Shown: in pieces, positions 1 to 21,368 of the stretch | How positions within the stretch are numbered: position 1 is the stretch's first letter | Layout: each line of letters opens with the position of its first letter | Virus record (IMG/VR): IMGVR_UViG_3300005353_000006 | DNA from: a virus | Reading direction: 5' to 3' (one strand) | DNA: 21,368 nt | The notes under the pieces: model-generated | Databases searched by the model: none | What the model saw: only the letters and a program-made list of their open reading frames with translations | Told to the model about the DNA's origin: nothing | Position numbers and translations under genes: made by a program

Positions 1-60
1 GCCTTCAGCGACGACGCCACCGAGAAGCTGGGCGACGCCACCGAGCGCGAGACCAACGAG
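1..60. repeat. Terminal direct repeat, copy 1 (identical to 21309-21368); circular-closure overlap
   Basis: Read directly: gccttcagcgacgacgccaccgagaagctgggcgacgccaccgagcgcgagaccaacgag occurs at both ends. Confidence 0.97.
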
Positions 61-2290: not shown

Positions 2291-2318
2291 CAACGGGCCG
2301 CCCGAGGGCGACCCGTTG
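2291..2318. terminator. GC-rich hairpin between convergent terL and the minus-strand gene (putative bidirectional terminator T_A)
   Basis: CAACGGG(c)CGCCC-ga-GGGCG(a)CCCGTTG. Preceded by ccaggacga, the same 9-mer that precedes hairpin T_B at 3301-3309. Confidence 0.5.
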
Positions 2319-2364: not shown

Positions 2365-3252
2365 CTAGCGCCCGGCCTCCTCGGCCAGCACCTTGGCGAC
2401 CGTCGGGTGGGTGCACCCGGCGAGCACCGCGATCGCGCGGTGCGACAGCCCGGCGGCGGCCGCGTCCACGATCGCCTGGCGCCAGGCGCGATCGGCCGTC
2501 ACCTTGGCGGCGGCGACCGCCACCAGCGTGGCGCCGATCGCGTCCTGCCGCTCGGCGCGGTCGGCGGCGGCGGCCTGGCCCGCGGTCTCGGCGACCTGCG
2601 CCAGCTCGGGCGCGGCGGCCGCGACCTCGGCCAGCGTGGCGGCCTCGTTGGCCTCCACCTGGGCGACCAGCTCAGGGTCGATCTCGCGCAGGTTCTCGCG
2701 GGTCGGGGCGGCCTGCAGCTTGCCCATGGTGACCTCCTCGGTGACGGGCTGGGCCTTGGCAAGGATCTTGCCGTAGCGGGTGCGGGCCTTGGCCAGCTTG
2801 GCCAGCGTCTCGGCGTGGCGCCGCTCGGCCCAGGCGATCGTCTCGGCGTAGTCCTCGGCGCGATCCGGGTACTGCTCGGTGTACGCGCCGTACACCTTGC
2901 GGGTGCTGGCCAGCTGCTCGTTGGCGGCCTGCACCCCGCGGCCGTCCTCGGCCACGTACGCCACCGCGATCTCGGCGGCCTCGGCCTCGGTCAGGATCAC
3001 AAAGCCACGCTTGAGCTGGCGGGTGGTGGTCGCGAAGGGCATGTGGGCGGCCGCGAACTTGGGCGGGTAGGCGACGCCGTAGCCGCTCATGCTGCCGTCG
3101 GTGCCGATGATCTCGCGGCCGACCCGGTAGGTGCCGGGCACGTCCTTGGCCTGGTGCAGGCCGCGCGCCTCGCGGGCGGCGGCGATCACGGCGGCGGCGG
3201 CGCCGCGGACGTGGGCCTTGCGGCCGGTGGTGGTGTTCGTGTCGGTGTTCAT
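2365..3252 (-). CDS. Orphan 295-aa protein with C-terminal HTH-like motif (cassette A); candidate DNA-binding regulator
   Basis: Minus-strand ORF with high GC3. ATG at 3252 lies 7 nt downstream of a -10 hexamer. C-terminus AIVDAAAAGLSHRAIAVLAGCTHPTVAKVL fits a resolvase/sigma-r4-style HTH pattern. The N-terminal domain is not recognised. Confidence 0.8.
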   Translation of the reverse strand: MNTDTNTTTGRKAHVRGAAAAVIAAAREARGLHQAKDVPGTYRVGREIIGTDGSMSGYGVAYPPKFAAAHMPFATTTRQLKRGFVILTEAEAAEIAVAYVAEDGRGVQAANEQLASTRKVYGAYTEQYPDRAEDYAETIAWAERRHAETLAKLAKARTRYGKILAKAQPVTEEVTMGKLQAAPTRENLREIDPELVAQVEANEAATLAEVAAAAPELAQVAETAGQAAAADRAERQDAIGATLVAVAAAKVTADRAWRQAIVDAAAAGLSHRAIAVLAGCTHPTVAKVLAEEAGR

Positions 3253-3259
3253 GGAAACA

Positions 3260-3288
3260 AGCTTACCATGGATCCTGGGGGATGGCAA
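3260..3288 (-). promoter_or_regulatory. Putative promoter P_A driving a leaderless transcript of cassette A
   Basis: Minus strand reads TTGCCA-17 nt-(TGG)TAAGCT-7 nt-ATG. -35 at 3283-3288, -10 at 3260-3265, with an extended -10 TGn. Confidence 0.6.
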
Positions 3289-3299
3289 GCGACTTTCCA
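3283..3299. promoter_or_regulatory. 17-bp imperfect palindrome O1, TGGCAAG-CGA-CTTTCCA, overlapping the -35 of P_A (putative operator)
   Basis: Half-sites TGGCAAG and TGGAAAG. An identical copy lies at 3658-3674 and a one-mismatch copy at 19405-19421. Confidence 0.6.
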
Positions 3300-3309
3300 C
3301 CCAGGACGA

Positions 3310-3337
3310 GAACGGGCGCCCCGTGGGGCGCCCGTTC
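3310..3337 (-). terminator. Perfect GC-rich hairpin T_B downstream of cassette B, abutting P_A
   Basis: GAACGGGCGCCC(c-gt-g)GGGCGCCCGTTC, with 12-13 bp arms. Preceded on the + strand by ccaggacga, as for T_A. Confidence 0.6.
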
Positions 3338-3360: not shown

Positions 3361-3627
3361 CTAGCGGCCGCCGCGCAGCTGGCGGGCGGTGACCTCCCCA
3401 GCGCGCTCCAGGGCGCACCGGAGATCGTCGCGGTCAGCGTTCCCGTTGGCGATGTCCTCCACCAGGCCGGTGAGGCCGACGCCGTTCAGCTGCTCGGAGT
3501 AGTGGCTGGCGAGCTGGTAGGCGTCGTCGCCCAGGTTGGCCACGATCCAGCCGGGGCGCTTGCCCGCGTCCAGCAGGTCGATCGCGGTGCGGAGGTGCAG
3601 GTTGGTGGCGCGCGTGTCGGTGTTCAT
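3361..3627 (-). CDS. Orphan 88-aa protein (cassette B) with N-terminal HTH-like pattern
   Basis: Minus-strand ORF. ATG at 3627 lies 7 nt downstream of a -10 hexamer. Shares its first five codons (MNTDT) with cassette A. AIDLLDAGKRPGWIVANLGDDAYQLASHY fits a helix-turn-helix pattern. Confidence 0.75.
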   Translation of the reverse strand: MNTDTRATNLHLRTAIDLLDAGKRPGWIVANLGDDAYQLASHYSEQLNGVGLTGLVEDIANGNADRDDLRCALERAGEVTARQLRGGR

Positions 3628-3634
3628 GGAAAGA

Positions 3635-3663
3635 ACCTTACCACAGGATCCGGGGGATGGCAA
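3635..3663 (-). promoter_or_regulatory. Putative promoter P_B driving a leaderless transcript of cassette B
   Basis: Minus strand reads TTGCCA-17 nt-(TGG)TAAGGT-7 nt-ATG. Confidence 0.6.
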
Positions 3664-3674
3664 GCGACTTTCCA
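3658..3674. promoter_or_regulatory. 17-bp palindrome O2 (identical to O1) overlapping the -35 of P_B
   Basis: TGGCAAGCGACTTTCCA read directly. Confidence 0.6.
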
Positions 3675-3683
3675 CGCCGGCCG

Positions 3684-3698
3684 GTTAGGCAGCCTAAC
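3684..3698. promoter_or_regulatory. Perfect 7-1-7 palindrome GTTAGGC-A-GCCTAAC in the divergent region between cassette B and portal
   Basis: Read directly. AT-enriched for this genome. Overlaps the -35 position of the putative portal promoter. Confidence 0.5.
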
Positions 3699-3714
3699 GA
3701 TCGTGCGCTAGAGT
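3685..3714 (+). promoter_or_regulatory. Putative rightward promoter for portal and downstream genes (leaderless geometry)
   Basis: -10 TAGAGT at 3709-3714, followed by exactly 7 nt and then the portal GTG at 3722. The -35 (TTAGGC/TAGGCA) is weak. Confidence 0.4.
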
Positions 3715-3721
3715 CGGCCCC

Positions 3722-4936
3722 GTGGGTCTGCTGGATCGGCTGCTGGGACGATCCGCACCGCCGCCGCCGTCGGTGCTCGGCCTGCCGTCCGGGTTCGATC
3801 CCGAGCTGGCCGGGCTGTTCGCCGGGTGGGCGTCGCCGCAGCTCGCCGAGCGCGTCGGCACCGCCGTGCGCTGCCTGCAGCTGGTCTGCCAGCAGGTGGC
3901 CGCCATGCCGATCCGGTTCCGCGGCGACTCGCCGGTGCCGCTGTGGGTGGCCAACCCTGACCCGGTGTGGTTCCCGAACGGCGCCGCTGATGCGACGTTC
4001 GCCACGATGGCGTCGATCTACGGCTGGGGCGACGCGTTCCTGCTGGTGACCGACCGCTACGTGACCGGCTTCCCGAGGGCCTACACCGTGCTGGATCCGC
4101 AGCAGGTGACCGTCGGCACCGACCCGGACGGCCGCGGCCGCACGTACCGGGTGAAGCAGTACGACCTGCGCAGCGAGGACGTGCTGCAGATCTCGCGCGA
4201 TCCGAACGGGCAGCTGCGCGGCACCTCGGCGCTGCAGGGCTACTCGGCCAACGTCCAGGGCGCCTACTTCGCCGAGAAGTTCGCGACCGACTTCTACCAG
4301 CAGGGCGGCGTGCCGTGGGCGGTGCTGCAGTCCAGCCGCCGCCTGGAGGCCGACCAGGCCGCCGCGCTGCAGGCGCAGTGGACAGCTCGGGTCGGCCTGC
4401 GCGGCGGCGCCCCGGCGGTGCTGCCGCCCGATGTCACGTTCCAGCAGTTCAGCTTCGCGCCGCGCGACCTGCTGCTGCTGGAGACCCGCGAGTGGGACGC
4501 CAAGCAGATCGCCGCCGCCTACGGCGTGCCCGCGTTCATGCTGAACATGGAGCAGGCGGGCGGCCTGAACTACTCCAACCCGGAGATGCTGTTCGACACC
4601 TGGTGGCGCACCGAGCTGTACCCGACCGCGCGCCGGGTGGAGGCCGCGCTGTCCACGTGGCTGCCGCGCGGCAGCTGGGTGGAGTTCGATCCGTCGATCC
4701 TGCTGCGGCCCGATCTGAAGACCGCCAGCGAGGTGTGGCTGGCGCTGCTCGCGGCCAACGTGGTGACGGTGGACGAGTGCCGCGCGGCGGTGCTGGATCT
4801 GCCGCCGCTGGCCGACGGCGAGGCGCTGGAGCTGATCGACGAGCCGCCCGGCGCGAACGCCAGCGGCCCGACCCCGCCCGACCTGCCCGCGCCGCCACCG
4901 GCGGCCGCACCCCTGGAGGTGGTGGCAAGTGCCTGA
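3722..4936 (+). CDS. Portal protein (HK97 family)
   Basis: 404 aa in the position after terL. Typical portal core QGGVPWAVLQS...FQQFSFAPRDLLLLETREWDAKQIAAAYGVPAFML...YSNPE. Confidence 0.9.
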   Translation: MGLLDRLLGRSAPPPPSVLGLPSGFDPELAGLFAGWASPQLAERVGTAVRCLQLVCQQVAAMPIRFRGDSPVPLWVANPDPVWFPNGAADATFATMASIYGWGDAFLLVTDRYVTGFPRAYTVLDPQQVTVGTDPDGRGRTYRVKQYDLRSEDVLQISRDPNGQLRGTSALQGYSANVQGAYFAEKFATDFYQQGGVPWAVLQSSRRLEADQAAALQAQWTARVGLRGGAPAVLPPDVTFQQFSFAPRDLLLLETREWDAKQIAAAYGVPAFMLNMEQAGGLNYSNPEMLFDTWWRTELYPTARRVEAALSTWLPRGSWVEFDPSILLRPDLKTASEVWLALLAANVVTVDECRAAVLDLPPLADGEALELIDEPPGANASGPTPPDLPAPPPAAAPLEVVASA

Positions 4937-6279: not shown

Positions 6280-6307
6280 CATCCCCGCCAGCGCGAAGGG
6301 CGCACCG

Positions 6308-6333
6308 TCGGCCGTCCAGTACCCTGGGCGGCC
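6308..6333 (+). terminator. Candidate hairpin terminator after the extra gene
   Basis: CGGCCGTCCA-gtaccc-TGGGCGGCCG, 10 bp with one G-U pair. Starts 29 nt after the stop and is followed by tcggccgttgt. Confidence 0.35.
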
Positions 6334-6453
6334 GTCGGCCGTTGTAGGCTGACCAGGCCGCGACGGGCGGGCCGCGCCACCACCTCCCCGGCCGCACCTC
6401 GCAGGGCGGCACGGGCCGCGCCGCTGGGCCACCGTCGCGGCGCCTCTCCTCGG

Positions 6454-6462
6454 TGCTAGCCT
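6454..6462 (+). promoter_or_regulatory. Candidate extended -10 element, TGC-TAGCCT, upstream of the capsid gene
   Basis: Second copy of ctcggtgctag (6449-6459), about 100 nt upstream of ATG 6565. Confidence 0.25.
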
Positions 6463-6564
6463 TGGCGGCGACGGCACCCCGCACCGCGCCACCCGGCCAC
6501 TAGGGCCGCCCCACGCATCGCGGCACCCCGGATCACTGACCCGATCCCTGGAGGGGCCGTCGCC

Positions 6565-15006: not shown

Positions 15007-15092
15007 ACCACCCTGGCGCAGTGGTGCGCGCACCCCGACGGGTGGGTGGTAGCCGCCACTGGACGGCTGGTGGAGCGGTCAACTAGATTGTG

Positions 15093-15129
15093 GGCCTGCT
15101 TCCAGGCCATCGGGGGCCGGTACGGCCCC
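15093..15129 (+). terminator. Two tandem perfect hairpins downstream of the late gene block
   Basis: GGCCTG-cttc-CAGGCC (15093-15108) and GGGGCCG-gta-CGGCCCC (15113-15129). Confidence 0.45.
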
Positions 15130-15310
15130 GTCTACGGCGGTGGCCTGGTCGGCGGAGGACAGCAGCGGGCGAGCCGGGCGCGGCACCCCGCCGTCGGTCT
15201 GAACCGGGCCGTTCGGAGGGGACGACCCTGACCTGCTAGGGGGGCGTCCCATGCCACGCATTCGCCGCAAATTGCGACACTTACGTGAGATCCGCAGACC
15301 CGCGCCAACG

Positions 15311-15350
15311 AGCGCGGGGAGGCGCGGGGATCCGCGGGGAGGCGCGGGCA
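15311..15350. repeat. Four tandem 10-bp repeats with core CGCGGG
   Basis: agcgcgggga / ggcgcgggga / tccgcgggga / ggcgcgggca. Equivalently, the 16-mer cgcggggaggcgcggg occurs at 15313 and 15333. Confidence 0.85.
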
Positions 15351-15408
15351 TGCGCAGCGGTCGCGCAGACCGCCGCAGGCTGTCGCACCTACGCGCAGGT
15401 TGGCCCGG

Positions 15409-15437
15409 TTGGCGGGCCGATCGTGCGGCGCTAGGTT
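15409..15437 (+). promoter_or_regulatory. Putative xis/int promoter
   Basis: TTGGCG-17 nt-TAGGTT, then 7 nt to ATG 15445. Those 7 nt also contain GGAGG, so a conventional leader is equally possible. Confidence 0.4.
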
Positions 15438-15444
15438 CGGAGGC

Positions 15445-15669
15445 ATGGCTGTGAGCGAGCACGAGCACCTGACCGAGACGGGCGACGAGCTGATCTCGTT
15501 CGCCGAGGCCGGGCGCCGGATCCCCAAGCGGAACGGCGCGCCGCGATCCGAGCGCACGATGCAGGACTGGGGCGCCCGCGGGCTGCTGCCCGTGGTCGCG
15601 GTCTCGGCCCACGTGCGGTGGGTGAACTGGTCGGAGTACCTGCGGCGTCTCCACCACAGCACCCGCTAG
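15445..15669 (+). CDS. xis: Excisionase-type (MerR-like) HTH DNA-binding protein
   Basis: 74 aa. LISFAEAGRRIP...TMQDWGARGLLPVV...VRWVNWSEYLRRL. Lies immediately upstream of the integrase. Confidence 0.7.
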   Translation: MAVSEHEHLTETGDELISFAEAGRRIPKRNGAPRSERTMQDWGARGLLPVVAVSAHVRWVNWSEYLRRLHHSTR

Positions 15670-15670
15670 G

Positions 15671-15687
15671 TGGAAACTGTGTTACCA
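15671..15687. promoter_or_regulatory. 17-bp palindrome TGGAAAC-TGT-GTTACCA at the xis/int junction (same TGGnAAn-N3-nTTnCCA skeleton as O1/O2)
   Basis: Read directly, with one mismatch between arms. AT-rich for this genome. Its last A is the A of the alternative int start, ATG 15687. Confidence 0.45.
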
Positions 15688-15734: not shown

Positions 15735-16931
15735 GTGACCGACACCACCGCCACCCGCACGTTCGCCCAGCACGTTGACCAGCCCGGCGGCCCCGGCACG
15801 CAGTACCGGGTGCGCCTCCGGTTCCCGGGCATGGCCACGATCTACACCGAGTGGCACAGCGACCTGGACGTGGCCAACGCCCGCGCCTCGGAGCTGCGCG
15901 CGATCCGCAAGCGCGGCGAAGGCCCCAGCGACGGCGCCCGGTTCGTGACCCTCGGCGACATGGCCCGCGAGGTGCTGGCCGCCAAGGGTATCGCCGGGCT
16001 GACCGAGGGCGGCCTGGAGTGGTGGGCGCGGATCCTGCGGCCGCTGATCGACGGGCCGCACGCGGCCACGCCGGTGCACCTGCTGCCCGTCGCCAAGATC
16101 CGCACCGCCCACCTGGAGCGCGCCGCCAAGCATCCCAAGGCCGCCAACGACGAGCGGATCGGCCTGGAGGCCGTGCTGCGCGCCGCGCAGGCCGACGGCG
16201 CCAAGGTGCCGGGCGCGCTGCTGGAGCTGCCGACGCCGGTGTGGGAGACCCGCGAGCGCGTCACGATCCACCGCGACGGCGAGCTGGCCGCGTTCGCGCT
16301 CGGCGCGCCCGACCGCTACGCGCGGCTGGTGCTGCTCCAGGGCATGGTCGGCTGTCGCATCGGCGAGCTGCTGCAGCTGCGCCGCGACTGGATCGACCTG
16401 GCCGAGGGCACCATCACGATCCCGCCCGCCGCGCACAAGTCGGGCAAGCGGATCGGCGCCAAGATCATCCCGCTGCTGCCCGAGGAGATCGCGCTGCTGA
16501 CCGAGCAGCTGGCCACCCTGCGCGTGGCGGGCGCCACGCCCACCTCGCACCTGCCCGGCACCCCGGCCGAGTCGGAGCTGGTGTGGCCGATGCCGGACGG
16601 CTCGGCCTGGCCGATGATCCACGGCCGCGTGGCGCACAGCTACTTCAATCGCCACGTCTGGCAGCCGACGCTGGCCGCCGCCGGGCGCGACGATCTCACC
16701 TCGCACGATCTGCGCGCCACCGCCGTCACGATCATGCGCGACCGCGGGATCTCCGAGGAGACCTGCCAGCTGCGGGTCGGCCACGCCGACGCCAAGCTGA
16801 TCCGCTCGGTCTACGACAAGGGCAGCCGCCTGGCGCGGGCGCAGCGCGAGCTGGTGGCGATCGCGGCGGCAGAGGTGGCGACCGTCACCGACACGATTCC
16901 GGCCGCCACCGCCGAGGAGGCTACCCGATGA
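15735..16931 (+). CDS. int: Tyrosine integrase
   Basis: Catalytic pattern: R in CRIGELLQLR, HDLRATAV (H-x-x-R), VGHAD, and Y in IRSVYDKG. GTG 15735 lies 6 nt after GAGGAG. Alternative start is ATG 15687. Confidence 0.9.
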   Translation: MTDTTATRTFAQHVDQPGGPGTQYRVRLRFPGMATIYTEWHSDLDVANARASELRAIRKRGEGPSDGARFVTLGDMAREVLAAKGIAGLTEGGLEWWARILRPLIDGPHAATPVHLLPVAKIRTAHLERAAKHPKAANDERIGLEAVLRAAQADGAKVPGALLELPTPVWETRERVTIHRDGELAAFALGAPDRYARLVLLQGMVGCRIGELLQLRRDWIDLAEGTITIPPAAHKSGKRIGAKIIPLLPEEIALLTEQLATLRVAGATPTSHLPGTPAESELVWPMPDGSAWPMIHGRVAHSYFNRHVWQPTLAAAGRDDLTSHDLRATAVTIMRDRGISEETCQLRVGHADAKLIRSVYDKGSRLARAQRELVAIAAAEVATVTDTIPAATAEEATR

Positions 16932-17128: not shown

Positions 17129-17137
17129 GCGCGCCCG

Positions 17138-17156
17138 GTGTCAATTCTGTGTCAAC
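17138..17156 (+). repeat. 19-bp direct repeat, copy 1: GTGTCAATTCTGTGTCAAC (two GTGTCA boxes 11 bp apart)
   Basis: 18 of 19 nt match 17345-17363. Confidence 0.9.
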
Positions 17157-17170
17157 CCTGACCGCGGCCA

Positions 17171-17207
17171 ACGGCCCGATCCCTGCAGCCATGCGGGATC
17201 GGGCCGT
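17171..17207. repeat. Perfect 13-bp inverted repeat with an 11-nt loop
   Basis: ACGGCCCGATCCC-tgcagccatgc-GGGATCGGGCCGT. Confidence 0.9.
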
Positions 17208-17209
17208 TC

Positions 17210-17236
17210 CCGTTCCGGTGTCTGACACCGAAACGG
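17210..17236. repeat. 13-1-13 palindrome with one mismatch, centred on GGTGTC-T-GACACC
   Basis: CCGTTCCGGTGTC-t-GACACCGAAACGG. Confidence 0.85.
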
Positions 17237-17315
17237 CCCCGCGCGTGTCTGCGGCCGTCGGCGGGATTCCGCGTAACCATGCGGGTTCGCGTGGTCTAGG
17301 CCGCGTGACCCTGCG

Positions 17316-17654
17316 GTGCCCTGCGGGTGTCTGCGCGGGCCTGCGTGTCAGTTCTGTGTCAACGCGGCGGCCCTGGTGACCCGCGCCGACCGCACCCCGC
17401 CCGCGCCCGCCGGGCGGCTCAGCACCGCCCAGGTCGGCGCCGTGCTGACCGCCCTGGCCCGCGCCGCCAGCACCGCCGACGACCGCGCCGCGGTGGTCGC
17501 GCTGCGTGACTGCCAGCTGTGGCTGAACACCACCACCGCCCTGGCCCGCGCCGCCGAGCGCCGCCAGCTGGTGCGCTGCCCGAGCTGCCGCGAACCGCTG
17601 CCCGAGCTGGGCGAGCTTCACGACCTGCTGCACCGGCTGGCGGTGGAGCTGTGA
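17316..17654 (+). CDS. Hypothetical early protein with possible split zinc-ribbon cysteines
   Basis: Good GC3 from about 17376 onward. CQFC near the N-terminus and CPSC near the C-terminus. Start uncertain (GTG 17316 or GTG 17376). The 5' end overlaps the second 19-bp repeat. Confidence 0.6.
   Translation: MPCGCLRGPACQFCVNAAALVTRADRTPPAPAGRLSTAQVGAVLTALARAASTADDRAAVVALRDCQLWLNTTTALARAAERRQLVRCPSCREPLPELGELHDLLHRLAVEL
17345..17363 (+). repeat. 19-bp direct repeat, copy 2: GTGTCAGTTCTGTGTCAAC
   Basis: See copy 1. The two copies are 207 bp apart. Confidence 0.9.
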
Positions 17655-19403: not shown

Positions 19404-19931
19404 GTGGCAAGCGACCTTCCACCGAGGCCCGCCTGGCGGCGCCGCTGTGCCCTGGCCGCCGTCTCGCCCGGCGCCAAGGCCGTCGTGCTGGCGCTGGACA
19501 CCTACATGGACGCGGCCTGCCGCGCGCAGGTCTCGCGCGGCAGGCTGGCGGCCGATCTCGGCGTGACGGCGCGCACCGCGCTGCGGTGGATTCACGAGCT
19601 GGAGGCGGCCGAGCTGCTGGGCGTCGATCGCACGATCGGGCACCACGTGAACCGCTACCAGGGCCGTCCCTACGGTGACACCCGCGACACCGTGACGGTG
19701 ACACGGGCGTCACGGTCTACGGTGACAGCTGAGACCGCCGACGGTGACAGCTCACGACCACTGACGGTGACACGGGTGTCACCCGAACTAGAAGGTCAGA
19801 AGGACAACGGCGCGGGCGCGCGCGGCGACGGTCAAGCCCGCGGCGAGGGCTACGGCAGCGCCTCGGGCGCGCAGCTCGCGCGGGAGGCGGCGGCGGCAGC
19901 CCGGCGGAGGATCCTGGAGGGCGGCGCGTGA
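19404..19931 (+). CDS. Winged-helix DNA-binding protein, candidate replication initiator (lambda O-like arrangement)
   Basis: KAVVLALDTYMDAACRAQVSRGRLAADLGVTARTALRWIHELEAAELLGV is a typical wHTH pattern. The iteron array lies inside its own coding sequence. Confidence 0.75.
   Translation: MASDLPPRPAWRRRCALAAVSPGAKAVVLALDTYMDAACRAQVSRGRLAADLGVTARTALRWIHELEAAELLGVDRTIGHHVNRYQGRPYGDTRDTVTVTRASRSTVTAETADGDSSRPLTVTRVSPELEGQKDNGAGARGDGQARGEGYGSASGAQLAREAAAAARRRILEGGA
19405..19421. promoter_or_regulatory. 17-bp palindrome O3, TGGCAAG-CGA-CCTTCCA, over the start codon of the initiator-like gene
   Basis: 16 of 17 nt identical to O1/O2. No -10 lies at the position used in P_A/P_B. Confidence 0.55.
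19672..19772 (+). repeat. Five direct iterons ACGGTGACA at spacings of 23, 24, 22 and 23 bp (candidate origin iterons)
   Basis: Copies at 19672, 19695, 19719, 19741 and 19764. Copies 2 and 5 extend to GGTGACACGGGYGTCAC. Confidence 0.85.
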
Positions 19932-20038
19932 TCGCGGTGGACGCCAGCCTGGGCCTGACGGGCGGCGAGCTGCGGCTGCTCGGCGTGCTGGTGCTCGTGA
20001 TCGCGCTGGTGGCGCTGTTCGCGTCGCCACCACGGTGA
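19928..20038 (+). CDS. 36-aa single-pass membrane peptide upstream of the lysin
   Basis: GTGA overlaps at both ends. LRLLGVLVLVIALVALFA. Confidence 0.55.
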   Translation: MIAVDASLGLTGGELRLLGVLVLVIALVALFASPPR

Positions 20039-21243
20039 ACGGGCTGGAGGCGCTGGGCGTGATGGCGCTGATCCTGGTGGCGATCGGGCTGGCGGGCCGG
20101 GTAGTTCGGCTGCCGAACGATCGCGCTAGGATCGACGGCATGGCCGACGCGTACAGCTACCTGACCGACTCGGAGCGGGTGACCTTCAACGAGACCTCGC
20201 GCCTCATGCAGCTGACCGACTGGGCGGGCTGGGACGCCACCCTGCAAGCCCAGTTCGACACCACCCAGCAGTGGATCCGCGATCGGCGCGCCTATATCAG
20301 CGACCTGGCCACCGGCGAGGTGGAGTCAAGCAACGGGCCGGGCTGGGACGTGGCGCACCGCCGCGAGCGGTACGACTACCTGCACAAGGCGAACCACAGC
20401 GACGCGGCGCCGCGGGTGCTGTGCCAGCTGCCGACCGAGGGCGGCACCGACGCCGAGAAGGTCTACACGTCACAGCGCGAGCTGTGGTGGCGCGAACCGA
20501 AGGGCGCCTACTCCGAGCAGTCGGCGCGGCGCCAGGCGATCACCGATTGGCTGGTGGAGCGCCGCCAGTACGTGTGGCGCCTCGCCGAGGGCCAGGTGCC
20601 CGGCGAGACGCCCGGCTGGGATCACGCCAACCGTCGCCAGCGGTACTCCAACCTGCAGGTCGCGACCAAGCACGGCAGCGCCTACGACAGCTGGTGCAAG
20701 TCCCACAACACCACCACCGGCGAGCCGAAGGGCGACGGCAGCAGCTCCTCGGGTGGAAGCGGATCTACCAGCGCTCGAGATCGCGCGCTCAGCTGGATGG
20801 CGCAGCATCGCGGCCTGAACGAGCAGCCGGGCGGATCCAACTGCGACAGCCGCTCGGACGGGATCCGCACCGCGCAGGATCGCTGCGTGGCCATGGGCAG
20901 CTCGGGCACGTGGCTGCGCTACCAGCCGTGGTGCGGGGTCTGGTGCGCGAACGCCATGCAAGCCGCGGGCGTGAAGGGCCTGACCTACGACCTGGCCAGC
21001 GTGGAGTGGATCGAGGCCCGCGCGAAGGCGGGCAAGGCGCCCTTCACCGGCTGGACGACCGACCCGAGCAGGGTACGGCCCGGCGACCTGGTGACGCTGT
21101 TCTCACCCGGCCAGCACGTGGCCATGGTGCGCACGCCCGGCACCAACCCGGTGACCGAGGAGGGCAACACGTCCGACACCTCGGCGCAGCGCACGCGATC
21201 CAAGGGCGACGTGGTGGGCTACGCGCTGGTGGCGTACCCGTGA
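20035..21243 (+). CDS. Cell-wall hydrolase/endolysin with N-terminal TM anchor, two ~39-aa internal repeats and a C-terminal CHAP/NlpC-P60-type domain
   Basis: TM LEALGVMALILVAIGLAG. Catalytic-type motifs PWCGVWCANAM, GDLVTLFSPGQHVAMV and EEGNTS. Confidence 0.85.
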   Translation: MNGLEALGVMALILVAIGLAGRVVRLPNDRARIDGMADAYSYLTDSERVTFNETSRLMQLTDWAGWDATLQAQFDTTQQWIRDRRAYISDLATGEVESSNGPGWDVAHRRERYDYLHKANHSDAAPRVLCQLPTEGGTDAEKVYTSQRELWWREPKGAYSEQSARRQAITDWLVERRQYVWRLAEGQVPGETPGWDHANRRQRYSNLQVATKHGSAYDSWCKSHNTTTGEPKGDGSSSSGGSGSTSARDRALSWMAQHRGLNEQPGGSNCDSRSDGIRTAQDRCVAMGSSGTWLRYQPWCGVWCANAMQAAGVKGLTYDLASVEWIEARAKAGKAPFTGWTTDPSRVRPGDLVTLFSPGQHVAMVRTPGTNPVTEEGNTSDTSAQRTRSKGDVVGYALVAYP

Positions 21244-21260: not shown

Positions 21261-21368
21261 GTGACCGACCAGGCCGAGGCGCCGGACACCGAGCGCACCG
21301 ATGACGCTGCCTTCAGCGACGACGCCACCGAGAAGCTGGGCGACGCCACCGAGCGCGAGACCAACGAG
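21261..21368 (+). CDS. Hyper-acidic small protein, 5' part (continues at nt 1 across the circular junction)
   Basis: GTG 21261 lies 3 nt after GGAGGAG (21251-21257). In frame with nt 1-177 through the terminal repeat. Confidence 0.7.
   Translation, partial: MTDQAEAPDTERTDDAAFSDDATEKLGDATERETNE
21309..21368. repeat. Terminal direct repeat, copy 2
   Basis: Identical to nt 1-60. Confidence 0.97.

What the first reader, a model, noticed from the sequence alone, without database searches (positions are those of the whole stretch)
3628..3721. 94-nt divergent control region: back-to-back leaderless promoters with two different palindromes
Leftward P_B (with O2) and a rightward candidate promoter face away from each other. 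The rightward promoter has -10 TAGAGT at 3709-3714, then exactly 7 nt, then the portal GTG. The perfect palindrome GTTAGGC-A-GCCTAAC (3684-3698) lies over the rightward -35 position. This resembles a compact genetic switch, but it would control the portal-to-tail structural operon rather than early genes. It also explains how portal and downstream genes can be transcribed when the hairpins and antisense cassettes interrupt read-through from terL.
Basis: partly seen in the sequence, partly recalled or inferred. Interest (0 to 1): 0.65.

Follow-up and report, generated by a model that had tools for sequence, protein, structure and literature searches.

The report
Back-to-back leaderless phage promoters
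The 94-base gap in front of the portal gene of a small, uncultivated, high-GC temperate phage very probably holds two outward-facing promoters whose transcripts begin at the start codon; the portal one is an old, conserved late-gene promoter that shares its palindrome with the lysin gene's promoter, and the other belongs to a portable antisense gene cassette inserted next to it.

Summary
Comparison with about 50 related contigs shows it is not chance.

**Setting.** The window is a complete circular 21,308-bp phage genome. Its only antisense genes, A and B, lie between terL and portal.

**Five matching promoters.** Five genes (portal, lysin, a small gene before the integrase, A and B) each have TANNNT, exactly 7 nt, then ATG or GTG. 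None has a Shine-Dalgarno sequence, and all have C at -1. This is the actinobacterial leaderless signature.

**Portal -10 element.** It persists in relatives down to about 60% portal identity, including those with no cassettes.

**The palindrome.** GTTAGGC-A-GCCTAAC recurs as GTTCGGC-T-GCCGAAC at the same position in the lysin promoter. All 32 occurrences of this dyad in 618 kb of related DNA lie in front of portal or lysin. It is therefore the shared cis-element of a late-gene regulon.

**The leftward promoter.** It carries two copies of a different 17-bp dyad, one over -35 and one over -10/+1.

**The switch reading.** It is only partly supported. The two promoters have separate operators at variable spacing, and the cassette is a self-contained module that varies between near-identical genomes. 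Which protein binds is unknown, and no transcript data exist.

The parts
3627..3643 (-). Type-1 dyad TGGTAAG-GTT-CTTTCCA over the -10 and +1 of P_B. It includes the A of the gene B start codon (3627).
   Evidence: The same element lies at 3252-3268 in P_A.
3635..3640 (-). P_B -10 hexamer TAAGGT, followed by 7 nt and then ATG at 3627. C at -1 and no SD.
3658..3674 (-). Type-1 dyad TGGAAAG-TCG-CTTGCCA. Its right arm contains the P_B -35 hexamer TTGCCA (3663-3658), which is 17 nt from the -10.
   Evidence: 3 matches against 0.03 expected. Also. In relatives the arms are conserved and the centre varies.
3684..3698 (+). Type-2 dyad GTTAGGC-A-GCCTAAC, centred at -31 of P_portal. Its left arm covers the -35 position (TTAGGC 3685-3690, 18-nt spacer).
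   Evidence: As RNA it is no more stable than shuffled sequence (z = 0.03).
3709..3714 (+). P_portal -10 hexamer TAGAGT.
   Evidence: TANNNT lies 6-9 nt before the portal start in 19 of 27 loci examined.
3722..4936 (+). Portal gene. GTG 3722 is the predicted +1 of a leaderless mRNA.
   Evidence: Pfam Phage_portal E = 1.7e-46. No SD, whereas neighbouring genes have GGAGG. C at -1.
3361..3627 (-). Gene B, 88 aa, orphan five-helix protein. It is optional among genomes with an identical portal.
3310..3337 (.). Perfect 12-bp GC hairpin after gene B. It is the cassette terminator and is equally stable on both strands.
   Evidence: -40.3 kcal/mol, z = -5.7 on the minus strand; -39.1 kcal/mol, z = -4.9 on the plus strand.
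3252..3299 (-). P_A, a second copy of the same promoter module: -35 TTGCCA, 17 nt, TAAGCT, 7 nt, ATG 3252. Both type-1 dyads are present.
   Evidence: family D5 (81-nt repeat, 83% identity).
2365..3252 (-). Gene A, 295 aa: a small beta/alpha N-domain, a long coiled coil and a C-terminal HTH. It is the candidate regulator.
   Evidence: HTH_23 E = 6.6e-4, below the Pfam cut-off; phrog_5497 E = 5e-5. Also.
2291..2318 (-). Hairpin after gene A. It is strong only on the minus strand because it contains G-U pairs, which marks it as the terminator of the antisense unit.
   Evidence: -38.9 kcal/mol, z = -3.2 on the minus strand; -26.2 kcal/mol, z = -1.6 on the plus strand.
20104..20142 (+). P_lys, the sister promoter: type-2 dyad GTTCGGC-T-GCCGAAC (20104-20118), GATCGCGC, TAGGAT (20127-20132), 7 nt, ATG 20140 of the lysin gene.
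   Evidence: the N-terminus is conserved from this ATG while the upstream sequence is not; homologues carry CHAP and PG_binding_1 domains.
15432..15447 (+). Third rightward leaderless promoter: TAGGTT, 7 nt, ATG 15445 of the 74-aa gene before the integrase. It shares the GATCGTGCGGCGC -10-proximal segment but not the type-2 dyad.
15671..15687 (-). Solitary type-1 dyad TGGTAACACAGTTTCCA between the 74-aa gene and the integrase gene.
19405..19421 (+). Solitary type-1 dyad TGGCAAGCGACCTTCCA in the gap before the Rep-like HTH_36 gene.

Best explanation
Positions 3628-3721 hold two independent promoter modules placed back to back. Each produces an mRNA that begins at its start codon.

**P_portal** (dyad 3684-3698, -10 at 3709-3714, +1 at G3722) is the conserved start of the head-tail late operon. 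Together with P_lys, which drives lysin, a holin-like gene, HNH and terL, it forms a small late regulon. The regulon is defined by the dyad RTTMGG-N3-CCKAAY centred at about -30. I infer that a dimeric phage DNA-binding protein sits on this dyad and blocks RNA polymerase, keeping the late genes silent in the lysogen or early in infection.

**P_B** is a near-consensus promoter: TTGCCA, 17 nt, TAAGGT, 7 nt, ATG. It belongs to a portable promoter-gene-terminator cassette inserted antisense at the pre-existing terL|portal operon boundary. A second dyad, TGGwAAG-N3-CTTkCCA, controls it and is present over both its -35 and its -10/+1.

**Shown:**
- the sequence anatomy;
- its statistics;
- its conservation;
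- the modular presence and absence of cassettes.

**Inferred:**
- the transcription start sites;
- that the dyads are protein operators;
- the direction of regulation (repression);
- that the regulator may be the A-family HTH protein.
For: **1. Five promoters of one design.** All five TANNNT-N7-RTG sites in the genome are gene starts, and other spacers are nearly empty. All five lack an SD, while neighbouring genes have GGAGG. All five have C at -1. Shell et al. 2015 (PMC4633059) report that in mycobacteria:
- a -10 hexamer or an SD, never both, precedes the start codon;
- C at -1 is preferred.

**2. Conservation of the portal -10.** TAGAGT, TAGACT, TAGGCT, TACACT, TAAGAT, TATGAT, TAGCGT, TAACCT, TAGCAT or TACGCT lies 6-9 nt before the portal start in 19 of 27 loci examined, down to about 59% portal identity. 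The surrounding sequence is unalignable. This includes cassette-free genomes.

**3. The type-2 dyad is specific to late promoters.**
- It occurs twice in the genome, at portal and lysin.
- In related loci, 32 of 32 occurrences are at those two promoters.
- The arms are conserved and the central 3 nt vary.
- L015/L056 carry a symmetric G>A / C>T change (ATTAGGTCGCCTAAT) that keeps the dyad.
- The L025/L054 clade has a different dyad, GTTkCCGGCAAC, at the same place in three late promoters: lysin, HNH-terL and portal.
- As RNA the dyads are no more stable than shuffles.

**4. The second operon is a late one.** Homologues of the lysin carry CHAP and PG_binding_1 domains.

**5. The cassettes are modular.**
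- Genomes with an identical portal protein carry 295+88, 294+88, 275+106, 322+106+88 or 298+84 aa cassettes.
- The junction TTTCCAC|GCCGGCCGG is invariant.
- Each unit has its own promoter and a 12-bp GC hairpin.
- In the L054 clade the homologous unit lies elsewhere and on the sense strand.

**6. Precedent.** The mycobacteriophage BPs repressor gp33 binds one 12-bp palindrome at PR, where it lies between the -35 and -10, and at three more intergenic promoters (P6, P27, P55). All are down-regulated in a lysogen (PMC4557955).
Against: - No transcript, TSS or binding data exist for this uncultivated phage, so every functional step is inferred.
- The host is unknown. Applying mycobacterial leaderless rules rests on 73% GC and on actinophage-like portal hits of at most 32% identity.
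- The strict sigma-70 scan finds no promoter.
- P_portal's -35 is weak: TTAGGC, or TAGGCA at 4 of 6.
- Some relatives break the pattern. L020 has TAGTGT 12 nt before ATG, and L029, L032, L034, L036 and L046 show no TANNNT at the predicted start.
- In L056 the portal dyad changed but the lysin dyad did not, so there is no concerted change.
- A dyad at -30 could also serve a MerR-like or other activator.
- No protein could be tied to either dyad. Genes A and B have only 14 and 4 homologues, all within this phage group, and no significant fold match.
Confidence: 0.62

Rival explanations
1. This is a true lysogeny switch. The antisense cassette encodes the prophage repressor, which would be the A-family coiled-coil HTH protein. 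The repressor autoregulates at the type-1 dyads and directly represses P_portal and P_lys at the type-2 dyads. The 94-nt region would then be the phage's immunity region, displaced into the late genes.
For: - By the gene calls on related contigs, A and B are the only antisense genes in the genome.
- Their promoters are near-consensus and carry double operators, and each unit has its own terminator. This is what a lysogeny-expressed gene looks like.
- A has a confident C-terminal HTH behind a long coiled coil, which suits binding to dyads.
- An A-type HTH gene lies next to a late promoter in three clades: W (antisense, before portal), L050 (sense, before portal) and L054 (sense, before the lysin promoter).
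- No other repressor candidate was recognised.
- In L054 the two dyad types share the half-site GTTkCC, so one protein could bind both.
Against: - In the window clade the two dyads have unrelated half-sites (CTTkCCA and GTTmGGC), which a single HTH is unlikely to read.
- In L050 the HTH gene follows terL on the sense strand with its own SD, and no cassette-type promoter is visible. That looks like late expression, not lysogenic expression.
- The spacing between the two operator sets is not conserved.
- The portal promoter exists in genomes with no adjacent regulator (L028, L037, L042, L048).
- There are no binding data.
Confidence: 0.28
2. The type-2 dyad is the binding site of a late-gene activator. 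P_portal and P_lys would be weak promoters that fire only when a phage activator, made from early genes, binds at about -30. The mechanism could be MerR-like spacer remodelling or replacement of the -35 contact.
For: - Both promoters lack a good -35 and head late operons.
- Several late promoters sharing one dyad is the layout of Mu C-dependent and P2 Ogr-dependent late promoters (my own knowledge, not checked here).
- In L054 the HTH gene lies immediately upstream of the first late promoter, much as lambda Q lies before PR' (the lambda comparison is from my own knowledge).
Against: - The dyad centre lies at -26 to -31, inside the polymerase footprint. Class I and II activators, Mu C and Ogr bind further upstream (my own knowledge).
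- Actinobacterial promoters often work with a -10 alone, so no activator is needed to explain them.
- No activator gene was identified.
Confidence: 0.2
3. There is no portal promoter. Portal would be translated from terL read-through transcripts, with antitermination through the cassettes. The TANNNT motif would be conserved for another reason, for example as a relic of the terL stop-codon context or as a translation re-initiation signal.
For: - In L028 the hexamer overlaps the terL stop codon. In L058 the lysin -10 overlaps the stop codon of the upstream methylase gene.
- The hairpins lack U-tracts, so they may terminate poorly.
Against: - In L037, L038, L042, L048 and L025 the hexamer is separate from the terL stop codon by 18-100 nt, yet keeps its distance to the portal start.
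- The same design occurs at four other gene starts, two of them on the opposite strand.
- Portal has no SD although its neighbours do.
- Read-through would have to cross two convergent transcription units and a -39 kcal/mol plus-strand hairpin.
Confidence: 0.1
4. The A-family HTH proteins are the missing small terminase subunit. One of the dyads would then be a packaging recognition site rather than a transcriptional operator.
For: - No terS was recognised anywhere in the genome.
- A-type HTH genes lie next to terL in two clades.
- An HTH joined to an oligomerising coiled coil is a terS-like composition (my own knowledge).
Against: - The gene is antisense with its own operator-laden promoter and terminator.
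- Its domain order is the reverse of typical terS.
- Its N-domain is swapped between close relatives.
- In L054 it lies far from terL.
- The dyads sit exactly at promoter positions.
Confidence: 0.05

Closest known systems
Mycobacteriophage BPs (cluster G) gp33 repressor regulon: PR/Prep divergent region plus P6, P27 and P55
   Same: - It is a temperate actinophage.
- Two divergent promoters lie in one short intergenic region.
- The same short palindrome lies between or over the -35 and -10 of several promoters spread along the genome, in small intergenic gaps.
- Those promoters are repressed in the lysogen (PMC4557955).
   Different: - There is no sequence or protein similarity.
- Here the dyad-bearing promoters head the late lysis/packaging and head/tail operons.
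- The divergent partner is a variable antisense cassette between terL and portal, not a repressor facing early lytic genes.
- The binder is unknown.
- The integration-dependent control described for BPs was not examined here.
Morons of lambdoid phages (HK97/HK022 type): autonomous promoter-gene-terminator units in late operons
   Same: - The unit is self-contained, with its own promoter and hairpin terminator.
- It lies between two genes that are adjacent in relatives.
- It shows presence/absence polymorphism among otherwise identical genomes.
   Different: - The cassettes do not differ in composition from the rest of the genome (GC3 0.97-0.98 against 0.95).
- They are antisense.
- They carry double operators.
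- They encode an HTH protein, so they look regulatory rather than purely accessory.
- All cassette ORFs share the first five codons (MNTDT).
Leaderless genes of mycobacteria and other Actinobacteria
   Same: - A -10 TANNNT lies a fixed short distance before an ATG or GTG at +1.
- There is no SD.
- C is at -1 (PMC4633059).
   Different: The host is unidentified, and nothing has been mapped experimentally here.
Lambda PRM/PR (OR) switch
   Same: Back-to-back divergent promoters, dyad operators, and a leaderless leftward transcript (PRM-cI; PMC10491246 abstract).
   Different: - In lambda one set of operators is shared by both promoters, and the rightward operon begins with cro and the early genes (my own knowledge).
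- Here each promoter has its own unrelated dyad.
- The rightward operon begins with portal.
Mu (C protein) and P2/P4 (Ogr/delta) late promoters
   Same: Several late operons, including lysis and head genes, each begin with a promoter that has a poor -35 and a shared dyad (my own knowledge).
   Different: The dyad here is centred at about -30 rather than -40 to -55, and no activator gene was found. P2's divergent late promoters both drive structural genes.

Membership tests
Actinobacterial leaderless promoter/gene | -10 hexamer TANNNT about 6-8 nt upstream of the start codon | tested here: met
   TAGAGT at 3709-3714, then 7 nt, then GTG 3722. All five such sites in the genome are gene starts.
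Actinobacterial leaderless promoter/gene | No Shine-Dalgarno sequence before the start codon; start codon is ATG or GTG | tested here: met
   Portal, lysin, the 74-aa gene, A and B lack GGAGG, while most other genes have it. All five start with ATG or GTG.
Actinobacterial leaderless promoter/gene | Primary transcript 5' end coincides with the start codon | not testable with these tools
   No RNA data exist for this metagenomic phage.
CI/Cro-type lysis-lysogeny switch | Divergent promoters in one intergenic region | tested here: met
   P_B and P_portal have start codons 94 nt apart and -35 elements 21 bp apart.
CI/Cro-type lysis-lysogeny switch | One set of operators shared by, or overlapping, both promoters | tested here: not met
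   The type-1 dyads lie only in P_B and the type-2 dyad only in P_portal. They are 9 bp apart here and 8-12 bp apart in relatives.
CI/Cro-type lysis-lysogeny switch | The rightward promoter drives early lytic genes, starting with a second regulator | tested here: not met
   The first rightward gene is portal, followed by protease, capsid and tail genes.
CI/Cro-type lysis-lysogeny switch | The leftward gene encodes the DNA-binding repressor that recognises the operators | tested here: inconclusive
   B is a five-helix bundle with no DNA-binding match and is optional. A has a C-terminal HTH, but its target is unknown.
Moron (autonomous insert in a late operon) | Own promoter and own terminator | tested here: met
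   TTGCCA-17-TAAGGT. 12-bp GC hairpins with z = -3.2 and -5.7. The simple terminator scan finds none because there is no U-tract.
Moron (autonomous insert in a late operon) | Lies between genes that are adjacent in related phages; presence/absence polymorphism | tested here: met
   terL abuts portal in L028, L037, L038, L042 and L048. Five cassette layouts occur with an identical portal protein.
Moron (autonomous insert in a late operon) | Base composition deviating from the surrounding genome | tested here: not met
   A: GC 0.751, GC3 0.98. B: GC 0.719, GC3 0.966. Genome GC 0.732.
Multi-promoter repressor regulon (BPs gp33-like) | The same palindrome at two or more promoters, overlapping the -35/spacer | tested here: met
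   Dyads at 3684-3698 and 20104-20118, centred at -31 and -29. 32 of 32 occurrences in relatives are at these promoters.
Multi-promoter repressor regulon (BPs gp33-like) | Repressor binding, and down-regulation in the lysogen | not testable with these tools
   Needs EMSA or footprinting, and reporters in a lysogen.
Activator-dependent late promoters (Mu C / P2 Ogr type) | Shared dyad centred upstream of the -35 (about -40 to -55) | tested here: not met
   Centres are at -31 and -29 in the window and at -26.5 to -28.5 in the L025 clade, calculated.
Activator-dependent late promoters (Mu C / P2 Ogr type) | An identifiable late activator gene | tested here: inconclusive
   No Pfam, PHROG or NCBIfam hit to a known late activator. 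The A-family HTH has unknown function.

The most novel reading that the evidence does not exclude
The phage's immunity module has been relocated into the middle of the virion gene cluster. An orphan coiled-coil HTH protein (the A family), expressed from an antisense, doubly operated, leaderless cassette between terL and portal, maintains lysogeny. It would do so by directly repressing leaderless late promoters (portal and lysin) rather than an early promoter. The promoter plus its first five codons (MNTDT) would act as a portable recombination module that lets different regulators or accessory genes be swapped in at operon boundaries.
Probability: 0.2. Interest if true: 0.7.

Novelty: new variant of a known kind. 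Interest (0 to 1): 0.5.

Why it matters
- **A transcription map from sequence alone.** It gives a concrete, testable map for a widespread but uncultivated group of about 21-kb temperate phages found in soil and rhizosphere metagenomes:
  - late genes split into two or three operons;
  - each operon begins with a leaderless promoter;
  - the promoters are tied together by one dyad.
- **Where accessory cassettes can land.** Antisense cassettes can sit inside a 'structural operon' without breaking it when they land on a pre-existing operon boundary.
- **Annotation.** The rule 'TANNNT, 7 nt, then ATG/GTG' corrects the public gene calls for portal and lysin starts on several related contigs (for example portal in L049 and L056, and the 402-aa lysin call).
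- **If a cassette protein proves to be the regulator.** Repression of late promoters from within the virion genes would be an unusual place and target for phage immunity.

Tried and rejected
- **Generic sigma-70 and terminator scan.** It found 0 promoters and 0 terminators. Its rules are too strict for high-GC promoters and for terminators without U-tracts, so I did not take this as evidence of absence.
- **Near-identity search of phage GenBank records.** No match. The protein search gives at most 32% identity to mycobacteriophage portals, so there is no annotated relative to lean on.
- **Rfam and tRNA scan.** Nothing found. Folding the dyads as RNA gave z of about 0, so I rejected a riboregulator or terminator role for the palindrome.
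- **Gene A.** Pfam, PHROG and NCBIfam give only a weak HTH. A PDB profile search found nothing. The AF2 model (pLDDT 76) searched with Foldseek gave no hit at E<=0.001.
- **Gene B.** It has 4 homologues. A good AF2 model (pLDDT 89) gave no fold match. Its function stays unknown.
- **Link between A's recognition helix and a dyad.** In L015/L056 the helix has A>S and the portal dyad changed, but the lysin dyad did not. This is inconclusive.
- **Host flanks.** I considered that the 25.8-kb NCBI contig (L049) might give them. Its gene order wraps the whole circle, so it looks like a concatemer assembly.
- **GATC as a regulatory signal.** GATC occurs in the spacer of all five promoters. It is very common genome-wide (13.5 per kb) and is missing from some relatives, so I left it as a side note.
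- **Palindrome rarity.** It is not an argument on its own: the genome has 35 perfect palindromes with arms of at least 7 bp.
Full report
**What the window is**

Bases 1-60 repeat exactly at 21309-21368 (family D1). The window is therefore a complete circular or terminally redundant genome of 21,308 bp, with 73% GC.

Recognised genes:
- HNH endonuclease, terL (727-2178), portal (3722-4936, Pfam E = 1.7e-46), S78 protease, capsid, tape measure, Dit and Sipho_Gp37 tail proteins.
- An integrase (15735-16931), a RecT-like protein, an endonuclease and a Rep-like HTH_36 protein.

By the gene calls attached to related contigs, every gene is on the plus strand except two. These are gene A (2365-3252, 295 aa) and gene B (3361-3627, 88 aa), which lie between terL and portal. 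No sequenced phage is close. Nucleotide search finds nothing, and the best portal hits are mycobacteriophages at no more than 32% identity. Many near-identical and more distant copies exist in soil metagenomes and IMG/VR.

**Checking the observation**

- GTTAGGC-A-GCCTAAC at 3684-3698.
- TAGAGT at 3709-3714, then seven bases, then GTG at 3722.
- An in-frame TAA at 3695-3697 excludes a longer portal ORF.
- The portal N-terminus (VGLLDRLLGR) is conserved from its first residue in relatives.

On the other strand, gene B is preceded by TTGCCA, 17 nt, TAAGGT, 7 nt, ATG.

**Is it more than chance?**

TANNNT-N7-(A/G)TG occurs five times in the genome, on both strands combined, and all five are gene starts:
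- portal;
- the gene at 20140;
- the 74-aa gene before the integrase (15445);
- gene A;
- gene B.

Spacers of 3-6 and 8-12 nt give 0,0,0,0 and 1,0,0,0,2 matches. First-order Markov shuffles give about 1.5 per spacer.

None of the five genes has a Shine-Dalgarno sequence, whereas most other genes show GGAGG 6-12 nt upstream. All five have C at -1.

These are the marks of leaderless genes established in mycobacteria (Shell et al. 2015, PMC4633059, read):
- either a -10 hexamer or a Shine-Dalgarno sequence precedes the start codon, never both;
- ATG or GTG at +1 is necessary and sufficient;
- C at -1 is preferred.

The simple E. coli-style scan finds no promoter. That reflects its strict consensus rules.

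**Comparative evidence for the portal promoter**

I looked upstream of portal in 27 loci spanning 51-100% portal identity. In 19 of them a TANNNT hexamer lies 6-9 nt before the start codon, while the rest of the upstream sequence cannot be aligned:

| Hexamer and spacing | Loci |
|---|---|
| TAGAGT-7/8 | window clade |
| TAGCAT-7 | L049 (not among the 27) |
| TAGACT-6 | L023, L024, L025 |
| TAGGCT-6 | L026 |
| TAGACT-7 | L028 |
| TAGCGT-8 | L037 |
| TATGAT-6, TAAGAT-6 | L039-L041 |
| TACACT-7 | L044, L045 |
| TAACCT-8 | L048 |
| TACGCT-9 | L038, L042 |

This includes genomes without any antisense genes, where terL ends 10-100 nt upstream. In L028 the terL stop codon TAG forms the first three bases of the hexamer.

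Exceptions are L020 (TAGTGT, 12 nt, ATG) and L029, L032, L034, L036 and L046, where I saw no hexamer at the predicted start.

The promoter in front of portal is therefore an old feature of this phage group, and the cassettes were inserted at an existing operon boundary. With two convergent antisense units and two 12-bp GC hairpins in the way, portal needs its own promoter and has one. The hairpins are:
- 3310-3337: -39 to -40 kcal/mol on either strand.
- 2291-2318: strong only on the minus strand.

**The palindrome is a regulon mark**

Within three mismatches, the only other match to the palindrome in the genome is GTTCGGC-T-GCCGAAC at 20104-20118. It has the same layout:
- 20104: dyad, GATCGCGC, TAGGAT, 7 nt, ATG 20140.
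- 3684: dyad, GATCGTGCGC, TAGAGT, 7 nt, GTG 3722.

ATG 20140 is the true start of its gene. The protein is conserved from MADAYSYL onward in L016, L020, L023 and L025, while the upstream sequence differs. In L025 a terminator-like hairpin with a T-run lies just before the promoter.

Homologues of this 367-aa protein carry CHAP (PF05257) and PG_binding_1 (PF01471) domains, so it is the lysin (weak TIGR02594 hit). It is followed by an acidic 81-aa protein, a two-TM 62-aa protein, HNH and terL.

The dyad thus marks the two late operons: lysis/packaging and head/tail. Supporting points:
- Across 617,729 nt of fetched relatives, RTTMGG-N3-CCKAAY occurs 32 times, always 7-10 nt upstream of the -10 of portal (left arm GTTAGG or ATTAGG) or lysin (GTTCGG).
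- The arms are conserved and the three central bases vary.
- L015/L056 carry ATTAGG-TCG-CCTAAT, a symmetric double change that preserves the dyad. The lysin dyad of the same genome is unchanged.
- The more distant L025/L054 clade has another dyad, GTTkCCGGCAAC, at the same position in three late promoters: lysin, HNH-terL and portal.
- Folded as RNA, the dyads are no more stable than shuffles (z = 0.03 and -0.64).

A double-stranded DNA site for a dimeric protein is the natural reading. The centre lies at -31 for portal and -29 for lysin, and at -26.5 to -28.5 in the L025 clade. That is inside the polymerase footprint and over the -35/spacer.

**The leftward promoter and the cassettes**

P_B and P_A are 83%-identical copies of an 81-nt module (family D5). 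Each holds two 17-bp dyads of consensus TGGwAAG-N3-CTTkCCA:
- one contains the -35 hexamer (3658-3674 and 3283-3299);
- one covers the -10 and +1 (3627-3643 and 3252-3268), 31 bp away.

Two solitary copies lie in other intergenic gaps, at 15671-15687 before the integrase and at 19405-19421 before the Rep-like gene. In the L017-L019 clade both dyads change together, to TTACCA arms and a shorter centre.

Genomes encoding an identical portal protein carry different cassette sets: 295+88, 294+88, 275+106, 322+106+88 or 298+84 aa. The sequence to the right of TTTCCAC|GCCGGCCGG is invariant.

Gene A:
- Its proteins share a C-terminal HTH. Linkers vary, and the N-domain is replaced in L016 and L018.
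- The family has only 14 members in 5.8 billion proteins, all from this phage group.
- The AF2 model (pLDDT 76) shows a small beta/alpha domain, a long coiled coil and a confident three-helix HTH. No PDB fold match is significant.

Gene B has four homologues. It gives a confident five-helix model with no match.

All cassette ORFs begin MNTDT (or MTTDT, MHTDT), even when unrelated. The cassettes do not differ in composition from the rest of the genome.

In the L054 clade the equivalent unit lies on the sense strand just upstream of the lysin promoter. It has a double-dyad promoter, a 92-aa gene, a 79-aa stand-alone A-type HTH and a terminator. In L050 a 74-aa A-type HTH gene lies on the sense strand between terL and portal.

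**Interpretation**

The best-supported reading is two independent modules placed back to back. One is a conserved late promoter with a regulon-wide operator. The other is the promoter of an inserted, self-contained antisense cassette with its own double operator.

I favour repression at the type-2 dyad for three reasons:
- its position is inside the polymerase footprint;
- -10-only promoters are common in Actinobacteria, and a lysogen must keep lysin and virion genes off;
- the BPs repressor gp33 binds one palindrome at PR, where it lies between the -35 and -10, and at three further intergenic promoters that are shut down in the lysogen (PMC4557955).

An activator cannot be excluded.

The classical switch reading fails three defining tests:
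- the operators are not shared by the two promoters;
- the rightward operon is late, not early;
- the adjacent gene B shows no DNA-binding fold and is dispensable.

The weaker claim remains open: that a cassette protein, the A-type HTH, controls the late promoters. The repeated placement of A-type HTH genes next to late promoters in three clades hints at it.

**Limits**

- Everything functional is inferred from sequence, and no RNA or binding data exist.
- The host is unknown. The two MAG assignments, Thermomicrobiales and Acidimicrobiales, are for distant relatives on short contigs.
- Relatives are not independent samples. The argument rests on the contrast between the conserved hexamer and dyad and the unalignable surroundings.

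**Verdict**

- The element is a new variant of known kinds: leaderless actinophage promoters, multi-promoter operator regulons and moron-like cassettes.
- Interest is moderate.

Noticed in passing
window 1-60 and 21309-21368: The two ends are identical over 60 nt. The window is therefore a complete circular or terminally redundant 21,308-bp phage genome. Its only antisense genes are A and B.
   Followed up: partly
window 3613-3627 and 3238-3252; also L008, L016, L017-L019, L022: Every cassette ORF starts with MNTDT (ATGAACACCGACACG) or MTTDT/MHTDT, whether or not the proteins are related. The promoter and the first five codons travel together as one module. Genomes lacking B look like products of recombination between the 81-nt P_A and P_B repeats.
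   Followed up: partly
window 19670-19790: A cluster of GGTGACA/TGTCACC repeats, including the perfect palindrome GTGACACGGGTGTCAC at 19767, lies inside the 3' part of the Rep-like HTH_36 gene. It looks like an iteron-type replication origin.
   Followed up: no
window 17129-17375: This is a 247-nt non-coding stretch after the integrase region. It is flanked by near-identical 19-mers GTGTCAAYTCTGTGTCAAC (17139 and 17347) and contains the palindrome CGGTGTCTGACACCG (17216). It may be the early control region or attP.
   Followed up: no
window 15007-15444: This is a 440-nt non-coding region before the 74-aa gene and the integrase, with short GCGGGGAGGCGCGGG repeats around 15300-15350. No tRNA gene was found anywhere in the genome.
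   Followed up: no
window 20035-20140: The lysin ORF stays open in frame upstream to GTG 20035. That start would give 402 aa, which is how several public gene calls annotate it. The extension would add a hydrophobic segment, and GTG 20035 overlaps the stop codon of a 36-aa TM ORF (GTGA). Either there are two starts or the annotation is wrong; conservation begins only at ATG 20140.
   Followed up: partly
window 21240-734: No small terminase subunit could be recognised. The genes between lysin and HNH encode a very acidic 81-aa protein and a 62-aa two-TM, holin-like protein, and HNH overlaps terL directly.
   Followed up: partly
window 3646-3651, 3271-3276, 3699-3702, 15419-15422, 20119-20122: All five leaderless promoters have a GATC in the spacer, between -18 and -26. 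GATC is very frequent genome-wide (288 sites, 13.5 per kb). The relative L058 encodes an MT-A70 methyltransferase immediately upstream of its lysin gene.
   Followed up: partly
L028 1582-1597; L058 8192-8207: In two relatives the -10 hexamer of a leaderless late promoter overlaps the stop codon of the upstream gene. In L028 TAGACT overlaps the terL stop, and in L058 TAGTGT overlaps the methylase stop. The promoter therefore lies inside the end of the preceding coding sequence.
   Followed up: partly
L002 3340-3660; L004 1692-2012; L049 13540-13860: Some cassette variants carry an extra 106-aa protein with an N-terminal signal-peptide-like sequence. It is translationally coupled downstream of gene A and may be an accessory or exclusion function.
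   Followed up: no
window 6280-6564: There is an unusually long 285-nt gap between the scaffold-like gene and the major capsid gene. In L049 the corresponding region holds three extra plus-strand genes, one with a weak HTH_23 hit, so it may be another insertion hotspot.
   Followed up: no
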